From the NCBI RefSeq assembly GCF_009914755.1, contig NC_060942.1: a DNA stretch of 64,000 nt; one strand, 5' to 3'. The notes under the pieces were generated by a model. It saw only the letters and a list, made by a program, of their open reading frames with translations. It was not told where the DNA came from and made no database searches. Of this stretch, positions 1,575 through 61,034 are shown piece after piece (within the stretch, counting starts at the first letter, position 1; every line of letters starts with the position of its first letter). Source of the stretch: the human T2T-CHM13v2.0 reference genome, Homo sapiens. The translations under genes were made by a program, and so were the position numbers.

Positions 1575-2784
1575 TTTTTACTGTGGTAAGAACACTTAAC
1601 ATTAGATCTACCATCTTAATAAATATTTCAGTATCTATTCAGTAATGCTACCTATAGCATTATAACTATAGTTATATAGTTGCTATACTACTATAACTAT
1701 ATATAGTTATTATATACATATATACATATTATATACATAACTATTGAGCACAATATTTTACAGCAGATGTCTAGAATGTAATTATCTTGTGTAACTGAAA
1801 CTTTATTCACTTGAGTAGGAAGGTTCCATTTCTCCCATCCCTCAGCCCCCGGTAACCATCGTTCTACTCTCTGCTTCTCTATGTTCATTTTGTATGTCCT
1901 ATAGAAGTGGAATTATGCAGCATCTGTCCTGTGTGACTGGCTTATTTCACTTAGCGTAATATCCTCCAGGTTTAACCGTGTTGTTCTTTCTTGTGGTAGA
2001 ATAATATTTCATTATAATGTTTTACATAGTTGCTGCACCAGTATACATTCCCACCAGCACTGTACAAAAGTCTCCTCTTTTTCCACATTCCTGCCAACAC
2101 TTGCTATCCTTTCTTTTTTTGAAACTAGCCATCCAACAAACGAGTTGATAAATAATTGTGGCTTCGATTTGCAATTTTCTGATGATTAGTGATATCGAAC
2201 ATCTATTAATACACCTGTTGGACATTTCTATGTCTTCTTTGGAGAAATGTCTATTCAAGTCCTTAAGCCATTTTTTAATTTGGTTACTTGTGGGTTTTGT
2301 TTTGTTTTATTTTCACTATTGAGCTAAAAGTGCTATTTATCTACTTTGGATATAAACGTTTTATCAGATATATGGTTTGTAAATGTTTTATTTTACTCTG
2401 TTGGTTGCCTTTGAATTCTTTTAGTTGCTTTCTTTACCGAGAAGAAGGTTTTCCATTTTGATATAGCCTCACTTGTCTACTTTACGTATTGTTGCTGGTG
2501 CTTTATGTGTCACATCAAAGAAATCATTGACAAGAACAATGTCATGAAGATTTTTTCCTACGTTTTACTCTAGGAGTTTTACAGTTTCACATTTTAAGTT
2601 CTTCATCCATGTTGAACTGATTTTTAAAAATATGTTATAGTGTAAGGGTCCAGTTTCATTTTTTTGTGTTTGGATATCCAGTTTTATCATTTGTTGCAAA
2701 GACCATTCTTTCTCTATTGTGTATTCTTACCACCCTTGTCAAAAATTAATTGATCATATATATGTGGTATGGTTTCTGTTCCAG

Positions 2785-2830
<46 letters not shown>

Positions 2831-4825
2831 GTCTATCTATACATCTATCTATCTATGTATCTATCTATGTCTTAATACTAGGACCACACTGTTTTAATTA
2901 CTATAGCTTTGTAATATATTTTGAAATCAGGAAGTGTGATGTTTCCAGATATGTTAGTCTTGTTTTAGCAATTCAATGTTTCTTTTTACTCCATATAAAT
3001 TTTAGAATTGCTTTTCTATCTCCTTAAAAAATGTCATAGGGATTTTGTTAGGGATTGCAATGAATCTACACATCATTTTAAGTAATATGGATAATTTTAA
3101 ATAATATTAGCCTTCTAATCTGCTCCTGCATTTGATTTGTTAGTATTTTATTGAAAAAGTTTGCATCTATGATTATCAGAAATATTGATGTGTAGTTTTC
3201 TTCTAATGTGAAGTATTTGGCTGGCTTTGGTTTCAGAGTAATGCTTGACCTAGAATAAATTTGGAAGTATTCCATTATCATCATTTTTTTTCAAAGATGT
3301 AAATGGATTGAAGTTAATTCTATAAATGCTTGCTAGAATTAACAAGTGAATTCATCCAGTCATTGACTTTTTTATTTGTTAGGAGGAATTTGATATTTGA
3401 TTACTGATTCCATCTCCTTACTAGTTGTAGGTTTGTTCAGATTTTCTATTTCTTCTGGATTCAGTTTTTGTAAATATAAGAGAAACATACATAATGAAAT
3501 TTATTCACTTATTCTGTGTTATCCAACTTGTTGGCATGTAATTTTTATAGTAATCTTTTACAATCCTTTTAATTTATGTGATGACATTTGTAATGTTTCC
3601 TCATTAATTTCTAATTTTATTTGTCTTCTCTGTCTTTTCTTATAGTTTACCCAATAATTTGCTATTTCTATTTGTCATTTACAAAAAGCAATTCACATTT
3701 GTTATTTCTTTTCCTATTTTATTTATTTCTGCTCTAATCTTTATTTTCTTCTCCTAACATTAAGCTTACTTCGTTTACTTTTCTAGTTCCTTGAAGCATA
3801 AAGATAGGTTGTTTATTTGAGATATATCTTCTTTTTCAATGTAGGCATTTATTGCTATTTACTTTCCTTTTAGTGATGCTTCTGCTATGTTTGTAAATGT
3901 TGTGTTTTCAGTTTCATTTGTCTCAAGATTTTTGCTCATTTCTCTTTGATTTCTAATGGGCTTTCAGTTTGCTTATCCCGCTTTCTGATTGATCTAGTCT
4001 GCTGTTGAAACTCTGTAATGATTCAGTCCTATAATTCATGTTTAGTACTTTTTTCTATATTTTTTAAAATATTTTATTTCCATTCTTGCATTGTGTTGTT
4101 TATGCATTGTTCTCCTGACATTGGTAAGTGACGTTATGACTGTTATTTTGAATTCTGTGTCAGTTAAATCACATATCTCCATACTAGGATCAATATCTGG
4201 AGATTTATCTTGTTCTTGTTGTTGTTGTAGTTGAAACATAGTACCCCGTTTCTTCAATTCCCTTGACGTTTTATGTTAGTGTCTGGATATTAAACAAAGT
4301 AGCCAACACTCCTAGTCTTCAAACATTAGCCTAGTACAGGATAAAACCATCAGCTTGACCAGAGATTCTGGGTGTCTCCCAAGACTTCATGCTAGTCTAT
4401 ACACTTCCTTTGTTCTCAGTGCCCCCCCAACCCCTGCCCAGCATCTATAGTTTTTCCCAATCCCATCAGCTCCTCAAGATAGGTGAGACAGAAGCCAGGG
4501 CCTCAAGCAGCCACCAGAGAAACTATAATATTGGACATATGGTCCAGTCCTTTCCTTCTATCTCCAGGGAGGAGCTGGAAGCTGGAGGTTTCCTCCTGAT
4601 TATATGCAGCTCTGTTGGGGTAGGGCTTATGGTGAGAAGGCATCACAACAATTTCTACTGGTTTCAATGGGACTGGATTCTCACTTGAGATACAGGACTC
4701 TCTCAACTTGTTCCTGGGTTTTTCACAAAGGAAATGATTCTGTGTGTTCTTATTGAATTGTTGAGTCTATGGAGATAAGGAGGGTCCAGGATTTCCTATT
4801 TTTCCATCTTACTTAAGCACCCCCT
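1575..4825 (-). mobile_element. Old LINE-1 (L1MA/L1MB-type 3' end, L1MA9-like), internally deleted, with ORF2, ORF1 and 5' region remnants
   Basis: 3'UTR-like GTGGTAAGAACACTTAAC..AGATCTACC at ~1583; minus ORFs [32 protein letters not shown] (ORF2 C-term), SITLKPKPAK..ENYTSIFLIIIDANFFNKIL (ORF2) and MEICDLTDTEFKITVI (ORF1 N-term like). Confidence 0.85.
2785..2870. repeat. (CTAT)n/GATA tetranucleotide microsatellite, 11 pure units plus interrupted units, inside the L1
   Basis: Directly visible. Confidence 0.97.
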
Positions 4826-8087: not shown

Positions 8088-8510
8088 CTTTTTTTAATTT
8101 ATTTTTTACTTTTTTTATTTTACAGCTTTATTCTTAATTTCTATTGCTTTTTGGGTGTGTTTTTTTGGGGGGATACAATAGCTTTTGGCGTACAAGTGGT
8201 TTTTTGGTTACACAGATAAATTATTTGGTGGTGAATTCTGATATTTTAGTACACTCGTCACCTGAGTGGTGTACATTGTACCAAATATGTAGTTTTCTAT
8301 CCCTGGCCCCCTCCCACCCATCTACTCTGAGTTTCTACAGTCCATTACATAACTCTGTATGCCTTTGTGTACTCATATTTTATTTCTCACATAAAAACGA
8401 GAACATATGCTTTTTGGTTTTCCACTCTTGTGTTACCTCACTTAGAATAATGACCTCCAGCTCCATCCAAGTTGTTGCAAAAGTCATTATCTTATTGTTT
8501 TAATGGCTGA
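8088..8510 (-). mobile_element. L1PB (L1PB3/4-like) 3' end, 5'-truncated
   Basis: Poly-T/AT tail at 8088-8120, then AATAGCTTTTGGCGTACAAGTGGTTTTTTGGTTAC..GTGGTGAATTCTGA and CACTTAGAATAATGACCTCCAGCTCCATCCAAGTTGTTGCAAAAG..ATGGCTGA. Confidence 0.88.
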
Positions 8511-8530
8511 CATTAGGGCCTGGTGGCCTA

Positions 8531-8612
8531 TGGCACTGTGGGTCCAGCCTGTGGCCTCTGTGAAGCCCAGCTCCCGGCAGAGGACGTGGGCAGCCTGCAG
8601 CGTGAAGTCATT
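8531..8612 (-). pseudogene. LOXL3: Short displaced fragment of LOXL3 coding sequence (SRCR domain 1), not a functional gene copy
   Basis: Reverse complement of 8532-8612 translates without stops or frameshifts as NDFTLQAAHVLCRELGFTEATGWTHSA, matching my recollection of LOXL3 SRCR1 (..CDDDFTLQAAH[I/V]LCRELGFTEATGWTHSAKYG..); GC-rich island in AT-rich context. Confidence 0.88.
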
Positions 8613-8620
8613 CGGTGCAA

Positions 8621-8801
8621 TCATATGCTGCATAGGTTTGTAGACTAGGAAGAGTAGGTGACATCATATAGCCTAGGTATGTAGTAGGCTATACCATCAA
8701 GGTTTGCAAAAGTATATTCTATAATGTTTGCACAGGAACAAAATCACCTAACAACACATTTCTCAGAACGTATCCCTGTTGTTAAGTAACACAAGACTGT
8801 A
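8621..8801 (+). mobile_element. Tigger3/Golem (TcMar-Tigger) 3' terminal fragment
   Basis: CATATAGCCTAGGTATGTAGTAGGCTATACCATC..CATTTCTCAGAACGTATCCCTGTTGTTAAGTAACACAAGACTG followed by TA. Confidence 0.85.
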
Positions 8802-8949
8802 TATCGTTCACTTAGAGAATTGCACATGTTTAGAAGAAAAATATATTAATTGAATGTTCAACTGTATTTAATTATGCTAGAAAATGGGATTAAAAAAAAG
8901 ATACAATTGCATGTTTGGTGGATACCTGAGTAAAGAAATGCCTAAGACA

Positions 8950-10229: not shown

Positions 10230-10250
10230 AGAGAGAGAGAGAGAGAGAGA
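10230..10250. repeat. (GA)10 microsatellite
   Basis: Directly visible. Confidence 0.95.
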
Positions 10251-11829
10251 AGGTCACAAAATTTGCCCTCTAGGTTCAGTATATCATGTATACTAATGTC
10301 CTAAGCCTTCACATTCACTCACCACGCACTCAGCCATGAATAATGGCAGTGAATCCTGACCAGAGACAACACAGCATTTCTGTTACAAGGAATAGCCACG
10401 TAGTTGTTTTGTGAAATGGGCTCTCGCGAGGGCCTGAAAAATTAAATTTGGTGGTAGTTCCATAGTTCACATAAAATGGCTATCATGGAATATTTTTATG
10501 ACTTTCTGCAAGAAAATGACACTCATAACTTAGATTTAAATGTTTAGGACACTTTTAGTTTTAAAAACATTATCAAATCAGAACTGAATTAAATAAATGG
10601 AGATTCTTCTGCAGGTTTGTGTTGTGTTTTTTCTCAAGAGAACTCTCCTCTGGATGACTTGGTTTTCTGAAGGCCTACTTCACAAGGCAAGTCCACAGCT
10701 ATCCCCTCTTACAGAAATGTGGTGTTCTCTCTGTCAGCATTCGGTGCCATTACGAAGATTATTTATAGTACTTTTGTCTAAAAGTCACAACCTCTGAAAC
10801 TAATAGGAAAGAAGACAGAAGCCAGATTACAGGACAGAACTGCTGCCCCACAAATCAGTATGTAGGAGTGACAGTTAATTCAGCTGATGTTATGAGTTGT
10901 ATCTATTCATCAGGCTACATTTAGGACTTAGGACCCCTGATATAAATAGTGAGAATTTTACGAGAGAATGAGCAGAAGCAGTGGAGCAAGGACCTAAGAT
11001 TAGTTTGAATGAACTATATTTGTTATATAAGTGACATTCTAGAAGGCTCTTTTTAAGAGACAATTGAGTTTTTTATTCTCTTCCTTAACATGATGTTACT
11101 GTACTTGTCACTGTTTTAGATTAGCAATTATTTTATAAGGAATTGACAAAAGACTACATTATTTAATACAATGCATAACCTTCAGCAGATGAAGCAAGGT
11201 GAATACAATGTAAAACTAAAAGCATAGTCTTTTTTATTTTTGCCTTAAGATCAACATAAGCATTATAATGGAGTCCACGAATTATGCATGAACTTTTTCA
11301 TAATGCAGTAATTGTTTCCATGCTTTGCTGTGCTGCAGTGTTTTAAGCTGCAGATGATATTATCTGATGGGTAAATGCAGGAACTAATGAAAGAAAGGCG
11401 TGCCTGTCTCAGGACCTTGAATAAAAAATCAGAAAGGTGCTGATTTGGATAATCGTTAAAAATAAGAATATCAAACTGAAAGGTTTGAGCTGAATTTAGC
11501 CTAATAATGACAGGAAATAGGTCCACAAATTACTTAATGACTAATGGTTAAAATTACTACAAAATACAGTATACAAGAGGGCAGTAATTCGATTTTCATT
11601 AAGTTCTACTTCAACCATATGTCTACACTGATAAAATGATGTGAAGAACTGAAATAGCTTTATAGTTTTATTAAATATCTTGTGTAGGAAAGTTATTTTA
11701 ATAGCTCTGTCATTTTTTCCCTTCAATCATGCTAGTAGTAGGAACAGGATTTAATTTAACGTGTATATTCATACCACATAGGGATTAGTAAATGTTTGAA
11801 TCTTCACAAGTGTCAAGAATTCTACCTGG

Positions 11830-12346: not shown

Positions 12347-15655
<3,309 letters not shown>

Positions 15656-17079
15656 TAATACGAAAGTACAAAATAGTCAGCTTATCATTAGACTTCCTAA
15701 ATGTTTACATTAAAACATGTTCCACCCAATATGACAGACCAAAAAGTGTGTATATAAGATTAAAATGAAGAGAATGTATTAGAGAAAAAGTTCAGAATTG
15801 AATTATTAACACTCAAGGGTTATGTCACAATGCCTGTAAAGCCCAAGCCAGTGATGGTTTGCATATCTGAACGTCATAACACATTCCTTTAGCAAATGTA
15901 TTTGTGTTTGAATTAACATATCTTTTTCCATGAACATAGCTACATTTATTTCCAGAAAACATGTTGATTTGCCCTGTTTCAGTTTAACAGAGAAGTAGAT
16001 TTGAAGATTTTACTATTTCCTTTATCCAAGATAATTCTCACCCAAAATTGGATGATGTAAAAGTTTGTCACAATAAGATGTATAGAGTAAAATCTAAAAG
16101 CCATCTAAAGTGCTAACATTCTTTCTCAAAAATATTAAGTATGTTAAAGAGTATGAAAAATAATGAATTTATCTTCTTATGAAACACTAGCTTCAAAGAC
16201 TTTTGCATTTATTCTGTGCTACTTTCAGAAACACTGAAATATTGCTTATAAATATAGATTGTTGCTTTTCACTGCTTTGCTATTAGTTCTAATTTAAGAT
16301 AATTTTGTATGACTAAATCGCTTTTTAGTCAATTTTGAAACCATGTTTCATAATTTCCTTTATTCTTATTCTAAGCTACCTGACTTTTTTTCTTTCCTAC
16401 CTAAGCTTCGTGCTTTTGGCAATCACTCAACCGCAAATGAATGCTAACTTACTTTAACCCCCTTTATTATAGCCTTAAAAAAGCAGTGTCTAGATTTTTT
16501 TCTTTAAATAATTAAATCATTAATAAACTTGCATTTAATATTCTATGTGTATTTTTCCCCCTTAAGTCAAACAATTAAGCAGGAAAAAAACTAGCAAAGT
16601 CTCTTATAAAAGGCTGATTAAATTTTTCTCTATCTCCATCCTTTTATACTGATATGGACATATCAATATTATGTGTGCTATAACAAAATGTATTCATTTC
16701 CTGCAAACAGACTAACTTACAAATACTAATGAAAACTTACAAGTCATGATGTTCAGGAAGTCACCCAGCCTCCCTCAGTGAAACTCAATGAGGATGGTAA
16801 TCCCTGAATTAAATCGAAAACAGGATGGTAATCCCTGAACAAGTCATCAAATGATTGTGCATGAATGTCGATGTAATGCATGTTGAAATCCTAGTAACAC
16901 AAAAATCTTCTAACTATATATCTATTAAAATAATCCCCCATATATTAATTTGTCTTGAGGACAGTATCTTATGTTCTCCAGCTTTTTTTTTCTGCTGTTT
17001 TGCATAGTGCTTAGTACAATAAGTAACTTTGTCAATGACAATTTCATCTTTGTATGGGCTTTATCATTTTCATGTCATG

Positions 17080-28110: not shown

Positions 28111-28215
28111 CCCGCCATGATTCCATAATGTAGGCAATTAACTATCTTTAGGGCTCGCTGCACCAAGTACAATAGCTATCTTTATGCCTTGGCATTTGGA
28201 ATAGTGATAACTACT

Positions 28216-28700
28216 ATGTTTATTGCAGCATTATTTACAATAACAAAGCCTTGGAACCAATCCAAATGCCCATCAGTGATAGACTGGATAAAGAAAATGT
28301 GGCACACGTATGCCATGGAATACTACACAGCCATAAAAAAGAATGAGTTCACGTCCTTTGCAGGGACATGGATGAAGCTGGAAACCATCATTCTCAACAA
28401 ACTAACACAGGAACAGAAAACCAAACACTGCATGTTCCCACTCATAAGTGGGAGTTGAACAATGAGAACCTACAGACACAGGGAGGGGAACGTCACATAC
28501 CGGGGCATGTCAGGGAGTGGGGGAAAAGGGGAGGGAGGGCATTAGGACAAATACCTAATGCATGTGGGGCTTAAAACCTAGATGACGGGTTGATAGGTGC
28601 AGCAAACCACTATGGCACATGTATACCTATGTAACAAACCTTCACGTTCTGCACATGTATCCCAGAACTTAAAGTAAAATAAAAATAAATAGCTAAATAA
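28216..28700 (+). mobile_element. L1PA (L1PA7/8-like) short 3' fragment
   Basis: MFIAALFTI..WNQ ORF2 C-terminus; 3'UTR GGACAAATACCTAATGCATGTGGGGCTTAAAACCTAGATGACGGGTTGATAGGTGCAGC; A-tail; TSD-like AATAGT..AACTACT. Confidence 0.95.
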
Positions 28701-28774
28701 TTTACTAAAAATAGTTTAACTACTAAATATTTTAACTACTAAACTAATAGTTTAACTACTAAAAATAGCCAAAA

Positions 28775-44244: not shown

Positions 44245-45745
<1,501 letters not shown>

Positions 45746-57491: not shown

Positions 57492-60400
57492 ACTATACCC
57501 TAGAACAAATGGACTTAATGGATATTAACAGACCATTTACCAAACAACCACAGAATATACATTCTATTCATTAGCATATGGAACATTCTCCAAAATAGAC
57601 TATATGATCTATTGAGACAAAACAAGTCTCAATAAATTTAAGACAACTGAAATTATATCAAGTACTCTCACTGACCACAGTGGAACAAAATTGGAAATCA
57701 GCTCTAAAAGGAACCTTCAAAACCATGAAAATACAAGAAAATTAAATAACCCACTCCTGAATGATCACTGGGTCAACAAAGAAATCAAGAAGGAAATTTA
57801 CAAATTCTTTGAACTGAATGATAATAGTGACACAACCTATGAACACCTCTGGGATACAACAAAGATAGTGCTAAGAGGAAATTTCATAGCCTTAAATGCC
57901 TACGTCAGAAAGTCTGAAAGAGCACAAATAGACAATCTAAGGTCATGCCTCAAGGAACTAGAGAAACAAGAATAAACTAAGCAGAAGAAAAGAAATAACC
58001 AAGATCAGAGCACAACTAAATGAAATTGAAACAAACAACAAAAAAATACAAAAGATAAATGAAATAAAAAGCTGGTTCTTTGAAAAGATAAAATTAATAG
58101 ACCATTATTGAGATTAACCAAGAAGAGAAGAGGTAAGATGCAAATAAGCTCGATTAGAAACAAAATGGGAGATATTACAACTGACATCACAGAAATACAA
58201 AAGACCATTCAAGGCCACTATGAATACCTTTATACACATAAACTAGAAAACCTAGAGAAGACGGACAAATTCCTGGAAATATACAACCCTCCTAGCTTAA
58301 ACCAGAAAGAATTAGAATCCCTGAACAGACCAATAACAATCAGCAAGATTGAAATGGTAATTTTTAAAAATTGCCAATAAAAACAAGTCCAAGACCAGAT
58401 GGACTCACGGTTGAATTCTATCAGACATTCAAAGAAGAATTGGTACCAATCCTATTGACACTATTCCAGAAGATAGAGAAAGAGATAATCCTCCCTAAAT
58501 TATTCTATGAAGCCAGCATAACCCTAATGCCAAAACCAGGAAAGGACATAACAACAAAAGAAAACTACAGAACAATTGCCCTGATGAATATAGATGTAAA
58601 AATCCTTAACAAAATACTAGCTAACCAAATCCAACAACATATCTAAAAGATAATCCACCATGATCAAGTGGGTTTCATACCAGGGATGCAGGGATGATTT
58701 AACATACACAAGTCAATAACTGTGATACACCACATAAAATTAAAAAAAAAATCACATGATCATCTCAATAGATGCAGAAAAGGCGTTTGAAAAAATCCAG
58801 CATTCCTTTACGGTTAAAATCCTTAGCAAAATTGGCATACAAGGTACATACCTCAATGCAATAAAAGCCATCTATGACAACCCACGGCCAGCATAGTACT
58901 GAATGGGGAAAAGTTGAAAGTATTCCTTCTGAGAACTGGAACAATACAAGGATCCCCACTCTCACCACTTCTATTCAACACAGTACTGGATACCCAGAGC
59001 AATCAGACAAGAGAAAGAAATAAAGGGCATCCAAATTGGTAAAGAGAAAGTCAAAATATTGCTCTTTGCTGATGATATGATCACATACCTAGAAAACCCT
59101 AAAGACTTCTCCAAAAATCTCCTGGAACAGATAAATGAATCCAACAGAGTTTCAGGATACAAAATTAATGCACACATGTCGGTAGCTCTGCTATACACCA
59201 ACAACAACCAAGCTGAGAATCAAATCAAGAACACGACCCCTTTTACGGTAGCTGCAAAAAATAAAATAAAATACTTAGGAATATACCTAACCAAGGAGGT
59301 AAAATACCTCTACAAGGAAAACTACAAAACACTACTGAAAGAAATCATAGACAACACAAACAAATGGAAACACATCCCATGCTCATGGATTGGTAGAATC
59401 AATATCATGAAATTGACCATATTGCCAACAGCAATCTACAGATTCAATGCAATTCCCATTAAAATACCACCATAATTCTTCACAGAACTAGAAAACACAA
59501 TCCTAAAATTCACAGGGAACCAAAAAAAAGAGCCTGCACAGCCAAACCAACCCTAAGCAAAACACAAATCTGGAGGCATCACATTACCTAACTTCAAACT
59601 ATACTATGAGGCATAGTCACCAAAATGGCATGTTACTGGTATAAAAATAGGCATATAGATCAATGGAACAGAATAGAGGACCTAGAAATAAAGCCAAATA
59701 CTTACAGCCAACTTATCTTCAACAAAGAAAACAAAAACATAAAGTGGGTAAAGGAAACCCTATTCAACAAATGGTGCTGAGATAATTGGCAAGCCACGTG
59801 TAGAAGAATGAAACTGTATCCTCATCTCTCACCTTATATAAAATCAACTCAAGATGGGTCAAAGACTTAAATCTAAGACCTGAAACCATAAAGATTCCAG
59901 AAGATAACATCAGAAAAACCTTTCTAGACATTGGCTTAGACAAAGATTTCATGACCAAGAACCCAAAAGTAAATGCAACAAAAACAATGATAAATAAGTG
60001 GGAATTAATTAAACTAAAAAGTTTCTGCACAGCAAAAGAAACAATCAGCAGCGTAAACAAACAAACCACAGAGTGGGAGAAGATCTTCACAATCTATGCA
60101 TCCAACAAAGGACTAATATCCAGAACCTACAAGGAACTCAAACAAATTAGCAAGAAAAAGACAAATAATCCCATCAAAAAATGGACTAAGGACATGAATA
60201 GACAATTCTCAAAAGAAGATATATAAATGGCCAACAAACATATGAAGATGCTCAACATCACTAATGATCCTGGAAATGCAAATCAAAACCACAATTTGAT
60301 ACCACCTTATTCCTGCAAGAATGGCCATAATCAAAAAATAGAAAACATAAATAACATATGTTGGCAGGTGTCCAGTAAATAGGGAACACTTTTACACTGC

Positions 60401-61034
60401 TGGTGGGAATGTAAACTAGTACAATCACTATGGAAAACAGTGTGGAGATTCCTTAAAGAACTAAAAATAGAACGACCATTTGATTCAGCAATCTCACTAC
60501 TAGGTATATACCCAGAGGAAAATAAGTCATTATACAAAAAAGATACTTGCACACTCATGTTTATCACAGCACAATTCACAATTGCAAAAATATGGAACCA
60601 GCCCAAATGCCTATCAATCAGTAAGTGGATAAAGAAATTGTGGTATATATGTATTCCATGGAATACTACTCAGCCATAAAAAGGGACAAAATAATGAATG
60701 GCATTTGCAGCAATCTGGATGGAAATGGAGACCATTATTCTAAGTGAAGTAACCCAGGAATGGAAAATCAAACAACATATATTTTCACTCATAAGTGGGA
60801 GCTAAGCTATGAGGATGCAAAGGCATAAGAATGATACAATGAACATTGGGGACTCAGAGGAAAGGATAGGATGGGGTGAGGGATAAAAGACTACAAATCA
60901 GGTTCAGTGTATACTCCTCCAGTGATGGGTGGACCAAAATCTCACAAATCACCACTAATGAATTTGCTTATGTAACCAAACACCACCTCTTTACAAGAAA
61001 CCTATGGAAATAAAAAAATAAAATAAAATATAAG
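57492..61034 (+). mobile_element. L1PB1-like, 5'-truncated ~3.5 kb, disrupted ORF2
   Basis: ORFs [23 protein letters not shown]; 3'UTR GTGATGGGTGGACCAAAATCTCACAAATCACCACTAA; TSD GAAAAT(T/G)CCAGTTT at 57478-57491 and 61035-61048. Confidence 0.96.

What the first reader, a model, noticed from the sequence alone, without database searches (positions are those of the whole stretch)
8511..8620. LOXL3 coding fragment fused to the 5' end of a truncated L1PB: a probable mRNA-L1 chimera
Seen: a ~110-bp GC-rich island whose minus strand (8612 to 8532) reads NDFTLQAAHVLCRELGFTEATGWTHSA with no stop or frameshift. It lies ~20 bp upstream of, and on the same strand as, the truncation point of an L1PB 3' end. 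It is too short for the ORF track. Established (from memory): this is the SRCR1 segment of lysyl oxidase-like 3, distinct from LOXL2 (FSIHAAHVVCRELGY) and LOXL4; L1 RT can switch template onto cellular RNAs during target-primed reverse transcription, as in U6-L1 chimeras. Inference: ORF2p jumped from L1 RNA to the interior of a LOXL3 transcript in an early-primate germline, or a DNA patch was captured at the 5' junction. It is unusual because the piece comes from near the 5' end of the mRNA with no 3'UTR or poly(A) of its own. It also keeps three CpGs in the coding part and looks less decayed than I would expect beside an old L1PB.
Basis: partly seen in the sequence, partly recalled or inferred. 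Interest (0 to 1): 0.85.

Follow-up and report, generated by a model that had tools for sequence, protein, structure and literature searches.

The report
Young LOXL3 exon patch between old repeats
An 81-base copy of part of a LOXL3 coding exon sits between two much older, broken repeats on chromosome 18; it is most likely a filler patch left by repair of a DNA break, not a fusion made when the neighbouring L1 element inserted.

Summary
Window 8531-8611 (minus strand) is 80 of 81 bases identical to the inside of the LOXL3 exon that carries the start codon (chr2). It lies on the same strand as an L1 3' end, 20 bp from it.

- The L1 flank differs from the plurality of 29 relatives at 43 of 334 positions (12.9%). 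The DNA-transposon flank differs at 26 of 183 (14.2%).
- No 81-bp stretch of either flank has fewer than 5 changes. P(<=1 of 81) is 2e-4 to 5e-3.
- The single difference is Val (patch) against Ile (human gene). Val is found in 26 of 26 other mammals, apes included. So the change lies in the human gene, and the patch shows no change of its own.
- No target-site duplication was found. The rest of the transposon is missing. 20 bp at the junction has no donor.

Best reading: a fairly young templated insertion, probably LOXL3 cDNA, captured by end joining at a break or deletion between two old repeats. This is a known kind of event and of low interest. The orthologous locus in other primates could not be examined.

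The parts
8610..8804 (-). 5' part (about 190 bp) of a high-copy interspersed repeat. Relatives begin TA|CAGTCATG. It is cut off at 8610/8612, and its remainder is absent from the locus.
   Evidence: 3327 first-look candidates; 40 scored at 78-83% identity; 11 of 11 relatives continue past the window's break with shared sequence; that continuation is not found after the L1 tail. My recollection that it is a Tigger-type Tc1/mariner element was not tested.
8610..8611 (-). 2-nt overlap (AT) that could come from either the repeat or LOXL3: microhomology at the 5' junction.
   Evidence: Read from the side-by-side print and the repeat alignment.
8531..8611 (-). 81-bp copy of LOXL3 coding positions 215-295 (codons 72-99, SRCR domain 1). 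It is in sense orientation and lies wholly inside one exon.
   Evidence: 80/81 identical to chr2:74560906-74560986; homology ends sharply on both sides, 18 nt before the GT donor; the exon is human LOXL3 and encodes an SRCR domain.
8511..8530 (-). 20 bp of GC-rich junction sequence with no identified template (filler).
   Evidence: Unique in the assembly at <=1 mismatch and as its 18- and 17-mers. No match at <=4 mismatches in 30 kb of the LOXL3 locus or in the 64-kb window. The L1 relatives read differently over this stretch.
8176..8510 (-). 3' end of an old L1 (end of ORF2 plus 3' UTR). It is a bystander; its apparent 5' truncation point is probably a deletion breakpoint.
   Evidence: 4524 candidates; 40 matches scored, one of them the window itself; the other 39 are 79-83% identical, and their homology starts at query position 21 (= window 8510) or later; 12.9% diverged from 29 relatives.
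8089..8175 (-). A-rich L1 tail, interrupted by other bases.
   Evidence: Sequence read. No direct repeat of the following 70 bp was found upstream.

Best explanation
The 101-bp GC-rich island is a repair scar that is younger than both its neighbours. It consists of 81 bp of LOXL3 exon plus 20 bp of untraceable filler.

Proposed sequence of events: a germline double-strand break, most likely accompanied by a deletion, removed the rest of the DNA transposon, the DNA between, and the upstream part of an old L1. The ends were closed by end joining, which captured a short copy of LOXL3 sequence, leaving 2 nt of microhomology on one side and filler on the other. I favour a reverse-transcribed fragment of mature LOXL3 mRNA as the donor, because the piece lies wholly inside an exon. 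This matches the class-2 'templated sequence insertion' pattern.

The adjacent L1 took no part. The event predates the human-lineage Val81-to-Ile change in LOXL3 and, by a rough clock, postdates roughly 25 million years ago.

Shown: donor identity, sharp boundaries, the decay contrast, absence of a target-site duplication, and the missing transposon remainder. Inferred: the deletion, the RNA origin, the end-joining pathway and the date.
For: (1) Donor: 80/81 identity to LOXL3, and the donor locus is intact.
(2) Youth: the L1 flank has 43/334 and the transposon flank 26/183 substitutions against the plurality of their relatives. 0 of 255 and 0 of 113 sliding 81-bp windows have <=1 substitution (minima 5 and 6). 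P(<=1 of 81) is 1.8e-4 at 12.9%, and 3.3e-3 to 4.7e-3 under the two most conservative rates.
(3) Direction of the one difference: Val in 26 of 26 non-human mammals, including Pan, Gorilla and Pongo; Ile only in the human entries. The patch therefore carries no derived change, and all 3 of its CpGs are intact.
(4) No retrotransposition hallmarks: no match of >=8 nt between the 70 bp after the tail and the 370 bp upstream, while 21 of 40 shuffles gave a match of 8 nt or longer. The patch has no poly(A) of its own.
(5) End-joining features: 2-nt microhomology and 20 bp of filler without a template.
(6) Both flanking repeats are truncated and their remainders are absent, as a deletion junction would leave them.
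(7) No near-identical source of the L1 piece exists elsewhere in the assembly (best 83%). This excludes a recent retrocopy of a transcript that carried an old L1.
(8) Size and features fit the published class-2 insertions: 73-414 bp, no target-site duplication, no poly(A), microhomology, untemplated bases, donors enriched in transcribed sequence (PMC5110952, parts 1-2 of the text read).
Against: The arrangement (sense mRNA piece, then an L1 3' end, then an A-rich tail) is exactly what a template-switch chimera looks like. Under my reading that is coincidence, at roughly 1 in 4 given one breakpoint inside an L1.

The decay argument compares the patch with its true source, but compares the L1 with a plurality of the 29 best-matching relatives. 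This can overstate L1 decay if the copy belongs to a poorly sampled subfamily.

A 20-bp filler is long for untemplated addition.

The patch contains no exon-exon junction, so an RNA origin is argued only from its being wholly exonic.

No other human or primate genome could be examined, so neither the deletion nor the date has been observed.
Confidence: 0.6

Rival explanations
1. A young patch, but copied from DNA rather than RNA. Either a stray genomic fragment of the LOXL3 locus was captured at the break, or a replicative template switch (FoSTeS/MMBIR type) copied 81 bp from chr2 before returning.
For: Everything that supports a young end-joining patch fits this equally. The piece has no exon-exon junction and no poly(A), so nothing proves an RNA intermediate.
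Against: The 81 bp stops 18 nt short of the intron and starts inside the exon. Exons are a percent or two of the genome (recalled), so a random DNA fragment would rarely be wholly exonic. Replicative switches usually use nearby templates (recalled).
Confidence: 0.22
2. During insertion of this L1 in an early primate, the L1 reverse transcriptase jumped from L1 RNA to LOXL3 mRNA, copied 81 nt, and the cDNA was joined to the target with loss of target DNA.
For: Same strand; the mRNA piece lies 5' of a 5'-truncated L1 that has an A-rich tail. Chimeras of L1 with mRNA are documented: 17 in hg38, 15 of them in sense orientation (passages of 10.1101/2025.02.02.635956).
Against: 7-10 substitutions are expected in 81 bp at the L1's decay; 0-1 are seen, giving P between 2e-4 and 5e-3. 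No target-site duplication. 20 unassigned bp lie between the parts. The documented mRNA/L1 chimeras mostly carry first exons ending at splice donors and near-full-length L1s with target-site duplications. Here the piece is exon-internal and the L1 is about 420 bp long. 'LOXL3' occurs 0 times in the 6 supplementary files held for that catalogue (PMC13174262).
Confidence: 0.08
3. An assembly or library artefact, or an event private to the sequenced cell line.
For: Only one assembly could be examined.
Against: The patch differs from this genome's own LOXL3 at the one site where it keeps the ancestral Val codon. A chimeric read or a very recent copy from this genome's own gene would carry the Ile codon.
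Confidence: 0.03

Closest known systems
Class-2 templated sequence insertions (TSI/TSIP; Onozawa and Aplan; PMC5110952, parts 1-2 read)
   Same: A short insert (81 bp; the published experimental range is 73-414 bp) copied from a distant transcribed locus that stays intact. No target-site duplication and no poly(A). Microhomology and extra untraceable bases at the junctions.
   Different: Whether it is polymorphic is unknown here, and it may be fixed. It appears to come with a larger deletion, not a clean insertion. The 2015 catalogue of 171 candidates (PMC4419790) is not held, so I could not check whether this locus is listed.
L1 chimeric retrocopies (U6/L1, mRNA/L1; TiMEstamp catalogue, 10.1101/2025.02.02.635956 = PMC13174262; passages and supplements searched)
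   Same: A sense-oriented cellular RNA piece 5' of an L1 3' part that has an A-rich tail.
   Different: No target-site duplication. The two parts are of very different age. The piece is exon-internal and does not end at a splice donor. The L1 is heavily truncated. 20 bp of foreign sequence lies between the parts. The locus is not in that catalogue's held supplements.
Short mRNA-derived pseudogenes (Terai et al., PMC2831318; part 1 of the text read, covering abstract, introduction and the start of methods)
   Same: An mRNA-derived fragment of <=300 bp in intergenic DNA.
   Different: Those are defined by a poly(A) tract and target-site duplications. This piece has neither, and it comes from near the 5' end of the coding sequence.
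Nuclear mitochondrial DNA inserts (NUMTs) as break filler (recalled; mentioned in PMC5110952)
   Same: Foreign sequence captured by end joining at a germline break.
   Different: The donor is a nuclear gene exon, not mitochondrial DNA.

Membership tests
L1 template-switch chimera (5' cellular RNA / 3' L1) | Both parts in the same orientation, with the L1 part 5'-truncated and ending in poly(A) | tested here: met
   the patch and the L1 are both sense on the minus strand; the A-rich tail runs to about 8089.
L1 template-switch chimera (5' cellular RNA / 3' L1) | Target-site duplication flanking the whole composite | tested here: not met
   no match of >=8 nt between the 70 bp after the tail and the 370 bp upstream; 21 of 40 shuffled controls gave a match of 8 nt or longer. 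A very decayed duplication could escape this search.
L1 template-switch chimera (5' cellular RNA / 3' L1) | Both parts arrived together (equal decay, or the same presence/absence across species) | tested here: not met
   L1 12.9% decayed, patch 0-1.2%; P between 2e-4 and 5e-3. The cross-species test was not possible.
L1 template-switch chimera (5' cellular RNA / 3' L1) | Direct fusion of the two copies | tested here: inconclusive
   20 bp (8511-8530) match neither donor. One 7-base run within them resembles what most L1 relatives carry at that place.
Class-2 templated sequence insertion | Insert templated from a distant locus, with the donor locus intact | tested here: met
   chr2 donor, 80/81 identity; the exon is intact and open.
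Class-2 templated sequence insertion | No target-site duplication, no poly(A) signal or tract belonging to the insert | tested here: met
Class-2 templated sequence insertion | End-joining signs: microhomology, untemplated bases, deletion at the target | tested here: met
   2-nt overlap. 20-bp filler without a donor. The remainders of both flanking repeats are missing. That the deletion is the same event is inferred.
Class-2 templated sequence insertion | RNA (cDNA) origin of the insert | not testable with these tools
   The piece lies inside one exon with no splice junction. It is favoured only because the piece is wholly exonic.
Class-2 templated sequence insertion | Polymorphic among humans (the 'P' in TSIP) | not testable with these tools
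   Only one human assembly is held.
Processed or short mRNA pseudogene | 3' end of the mRNA with poly(A), flanked by target-site duplications | tested here: not met
   The piece is coding positions 215-295 of an exon near the 5' end. It has no poly(A) and no duplication.

The most novel reading that the evidence does not exclude
The patch is a natural, fixed, ape-age example of RNA-templated break repair. A reverse-transcribed internal fragment of LOXL3 mRNA, with no poly(A) and no target-site duplication, sealed a germline deletion. It thereby preserved the ancestral Val81 codon that the human gene later lost, making it a datable record of the donor allele.
Probability: 0.45. Interest if true: 0.4.

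Novelty: new member of a known kind. Interest (0 to 1): 0.25.

Why it matters
On its own it matters little: it is one more short templated insertion in intergenic DNA. Three points are of modest use.

1. It is a worked example in which position next to an L1 end suggests a retrotransposition chimera, and a simple comparison of local decay shows that the two parts differ in age.

2. The patch differs from LOXL3 only at coding position 241. Short reads or capture fragments from chr18 could therefore mis-map to LOXL3 and produce a false low-fraction Ile81Val call, in a gene screened for Stickler syndrome and high myopia (search listing).

3. It draws attention to a human-lineage Val-to-Ile change at a residue that does not vary in the 26 other mammals sampled.

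Tried and rejected
- A donor for the 20-bp filler. I searched the whole assembly at <=1 mismatch, its 18- and 17-mers exactly, 30 kb of the LOXL3 locus at <=4 mismatches, and the window at <=4 mismatches plus k-mers within +-3 kb. Only chance-level 9-mers turned up.
- The transposon resuming after the L1 tail, which would show a simple L1 insertion into it. Local alignments scored 27-42, against 214-232 for the true match. BLAST of the 11 continuations gave 35 hits in the window. None lies between the L1 tail and the patch.
- The upstream part of the L1 lying beyond the transposon. 343 hits from 29 relatives, none between window 3231 and 13009.
- A recent retrocopy of an old L1-bearing transcript. 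No source above 83% identity.
- A palindrome-break idea for the transposon. Only 1 of 11 relatives (L010) showed an inverted second arm, so I dropped it.
- Literature. 'LOXL3' with 'I81V' gave 0 papers. 'LOXL3' with 'human-specific' and 'amino acid substitution' gave 0 papers. The first combined search was swamped by LOXL3 papers.
- The 2015 TSIP catalogue is not held.

Full report
WHAT IS THERE

Read on the minus strand, the locus consists of the following parts.
- 8804-8610: the first ~190 bp of a high-copy interspersed repeat.
- 8611-8531: an 81-bp piece of LOXL3.
- 8530-8511: 20 bp of GC-rich sequence with no identifiable origin.
- 8510-8176: the 3' end of an L1.
- Down to about 8089: the L1's interrupted A-rich tail.

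The GC island is real: 0.63 in 8500-8599, and 64% over 8511-8611 against 37% in both flanks.

IDENTITY OF THE PIECE

A search of the window's own assembly with 8511-8640 gave three matches:
- the window itself;
- chr2:74560906-74560986, 99% over 81 bp;
- chr8:23642916-23642973, 83% over 58 bp.

Aligned directly, the chr2 match is 80 of 81 with no gaps. The chr2 exon opens with a start codon and translates to 104 residues. These residues are 100% identical to database entries named 'lysyl oxidase like 3 [Homo sapiens]' (P0016, P0019). They match Pfam SRCR at 4.9e-13 and, among solved structures, lysyl oxidase homolog 2 (5ze3) and other SRCR proteins.

The copied stretch is coding positions 215-295, i.e. 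codons 72 to 99. Homology stops abruptly on both sides, inside the exon, 18 nt before the GT donor. The piece therefore contains neither an intron nor a splice junction. It does not by itself show whether RNA or DNA was copied.

THE FLANKS

The upstream repeat has 3327 first-look candidates in the genome. The 40 that were scored are 78-83% identical. In an alignment with 11 relatives, all 11 run on past the window's break point with shared sequence, whereas the window switches to LOXL3. Two bases (AT, 8611-8610) could belong to either sequence.

The continuation seen in the relatives is not present after the L1 tail:
- alignment scores were 27-42, against 214-232 for the true match;
- 35 BLAST hits from the 11 continuations fall elsewhere in the window, most at places that the hub's table lists as ~300-bp masked repeats.

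The L1 piece has 4524 candidates. 40 matches were scored, one of them the window itself. The other 39 are 79-83% identical, and their homology begins at window 8510 or later. The relatives read quite differently over the 20 bp before that point. L1 sequence from upstream in the 29 relatives gives 343 hits in the window, none between 3231 and 13009. The 5' part of this L1 is therefore not nearby.

THE DECISIVE RESULT: THE PARTS DIFFER IN AGE

- Against the plurality state of 29 relatives, the L1 flank differs at 43 of 334 aligned positions (12.9%). A star-tree estimate from pairwise distances gives the same value.
- Against 11 relatives, the transposon flank differs at 26 of 183 positions (14.2%).
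- None of 255 sliding 81-bp windows in the L1, and none of 113 in the transposon, has fewer than 5 or 6 substitutions respectively.
- The patch has one difference from its source.
- At the L1's rate about 10 differences are expected, and P(<=1) = 1.8e-4. Under the two most conservative rates (half the distance to the closest relative, or the relatives' own mean divergence) 7-8 are expected, and P = 3.3e-3 to 4.7e-3.

The single difference can also be given a direction. The patch reads Val where the human gene reads Ile. Val is the residue in all 26 non-human mammals I aligned, including chimpanzee, bonobo, gorilla, orangutan, two gibbons, five Old World monkeys, two New World monkeys, tarsier and three lemurs. 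I chose these 26 from the 120 rows listed to span primates and other orders; the other rows were not examined.

The change therefore happened in the human gene. The patch shows no change of its own, and all three of its CpGs survive.

This also argues against an assembly or library artefact, because the patch does not match this genome's own LOXL3 at that site.

With recalled substitution rates (not tool results), zero changes gives a 95% upper bound of about 22-44 million years. The upper bound is 22-26 under phylogenetically calibrated rates.

NO RETROTRANSPOSITION HALLMARKS FOR THE COMPOSITE

The 70 bp after the A-rich tail share no stretch of 8 nt or more with the 370 bp upstream of the L1. 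That upstream region includes every candidate 5' boundary, and mismatches were allowed for longer words. 21 of 40 shuffled controls produced a match of 8 nt or longer.

The 20-bp filler has no donor:
- in the assembly at <=1 mismatch, or as its 18- and 17-mers;
- in 30 kb of the LOXL3 locus at <=4 mismatches;
- in the window.

No copy of the L1 piece above 83% identity exists elsewhere. This rules out a recent retrocopy of a transcript that happened to contain an old L1.

INTERPRETATION

A template-switch chimera made when this L1 inserted would require the patch to be as old as the L1. The decay contrast rejects that, unless an 81-bp GC-rich neutral sequence escaped about ten expected substitutions.

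The alternative is a later event. A later insertion falling exactly on a pre-existing junction of two truncated repeats would be a remarkable coincidence. A deletion whose two ends happened to fall in a transposon and in an L1, sealed with a captured patch, needs no coincidence. It also explains why the remainders of both repeats are missing.

The features match the class-2 templated insertions described by Onozawa and Aplan: short inserts from distant, mostly transcribed loci, without target-site duplication or poly(A), with microhomology and untemplated bases. Experimental inserts there were 73-414 bp, and their frequency was reduced by reverse-transcriptase inhibitors (PMC5110952, parts 1-2 read).

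I favour an mRNA-derived cDNA as the donor, because a random 81-bp DNA fragment would seldom be wholly exonic. This is an argument, not a demonstration.

COMPARISON WITH KNOWN L1 CHIMERAS

The recent catalogue reports 17 mRNA or lncRNA/L1 chimeras in hg38. 15 are in sense orientation. They mostly carry first exons, several ending at splice donors; they have near-full-length L1s and target-site duplications; and they were selected for contemporaneous arrival of the two parts (passages of 10.1101/2025.02.02.635956).

The present locus shares only the orientation. 'LOXL3' does not occur in the six supplementary files held for the published version (PMC13174262). Short mRNA pseudogenes (PMC2831318, part 1 of the text read, covering abstract, introduction and the start of methods) are defined by poly(A) and target-site duplications, which are absent here.

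LIMITS

- No other human or primate assembly could be searched, so presence/absence, the deletion and the date are predictions.
- The repeat family names (L1PB; Tigger-type transposon) are recalled and untested.
- The 2015 TSIP list is not held.
- The L1 decay estimate rests on the 29 best-matching relatives out of 4524 candidates.

VERDICT

The mechanism is not an L1 chimera but, most likely, a young break-repair patch. This is a new member of a known kind, of low interest.

Noticed in passing
L002 (chr2 LOXL3 exon), codon 81; corresponds to window 8585: Human LOXL3 has Ile81 where all 26 other mammals sampled, including every ape, have Val. The surrounding 27 residues are almost invariant from marsupial to ape. 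It is a CpG transition in the human lineage. Two literature searches found nothing on it.
   Followed up: partly
window 10294-10332 (minus strand): A 39-bp stretch, 95% identical to an internal part of 2 of the 11 relatives of the same transposon family (a third relative matches at 83% over 36 bp). It lies 1.5 kb from the truncated copy and next to a (CT)n run at about 10230-10260. It is either a separate fragment or a relic of a rearrangement.
   Followed up: no
L010 (chr4:126273241-126276417): In this relative the transposon is followed about 190 bp later by an inverted second copy of its own first ~135 bp. This was seen in only 1 of 11 relatives.
   Followed up: no
window 2002-2685 and 3105-3230 (minus); 13010-15673, 28210-28710 and 58327-60813 (plus); 44808-45745 (minus): Other L1 ORF2-type fragments in the window. 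They were detected with the upstream parts of the 29 L1 relatives, and none is contiguous with the L1 piece studied.
   Followed up: no
L003 (chr8:23642916-23642973): The paralogous LOXL2 exon matches the patch at 83% over 58 bp and also carries the Val-type codon at the polymorphic site.
   Followed up: no
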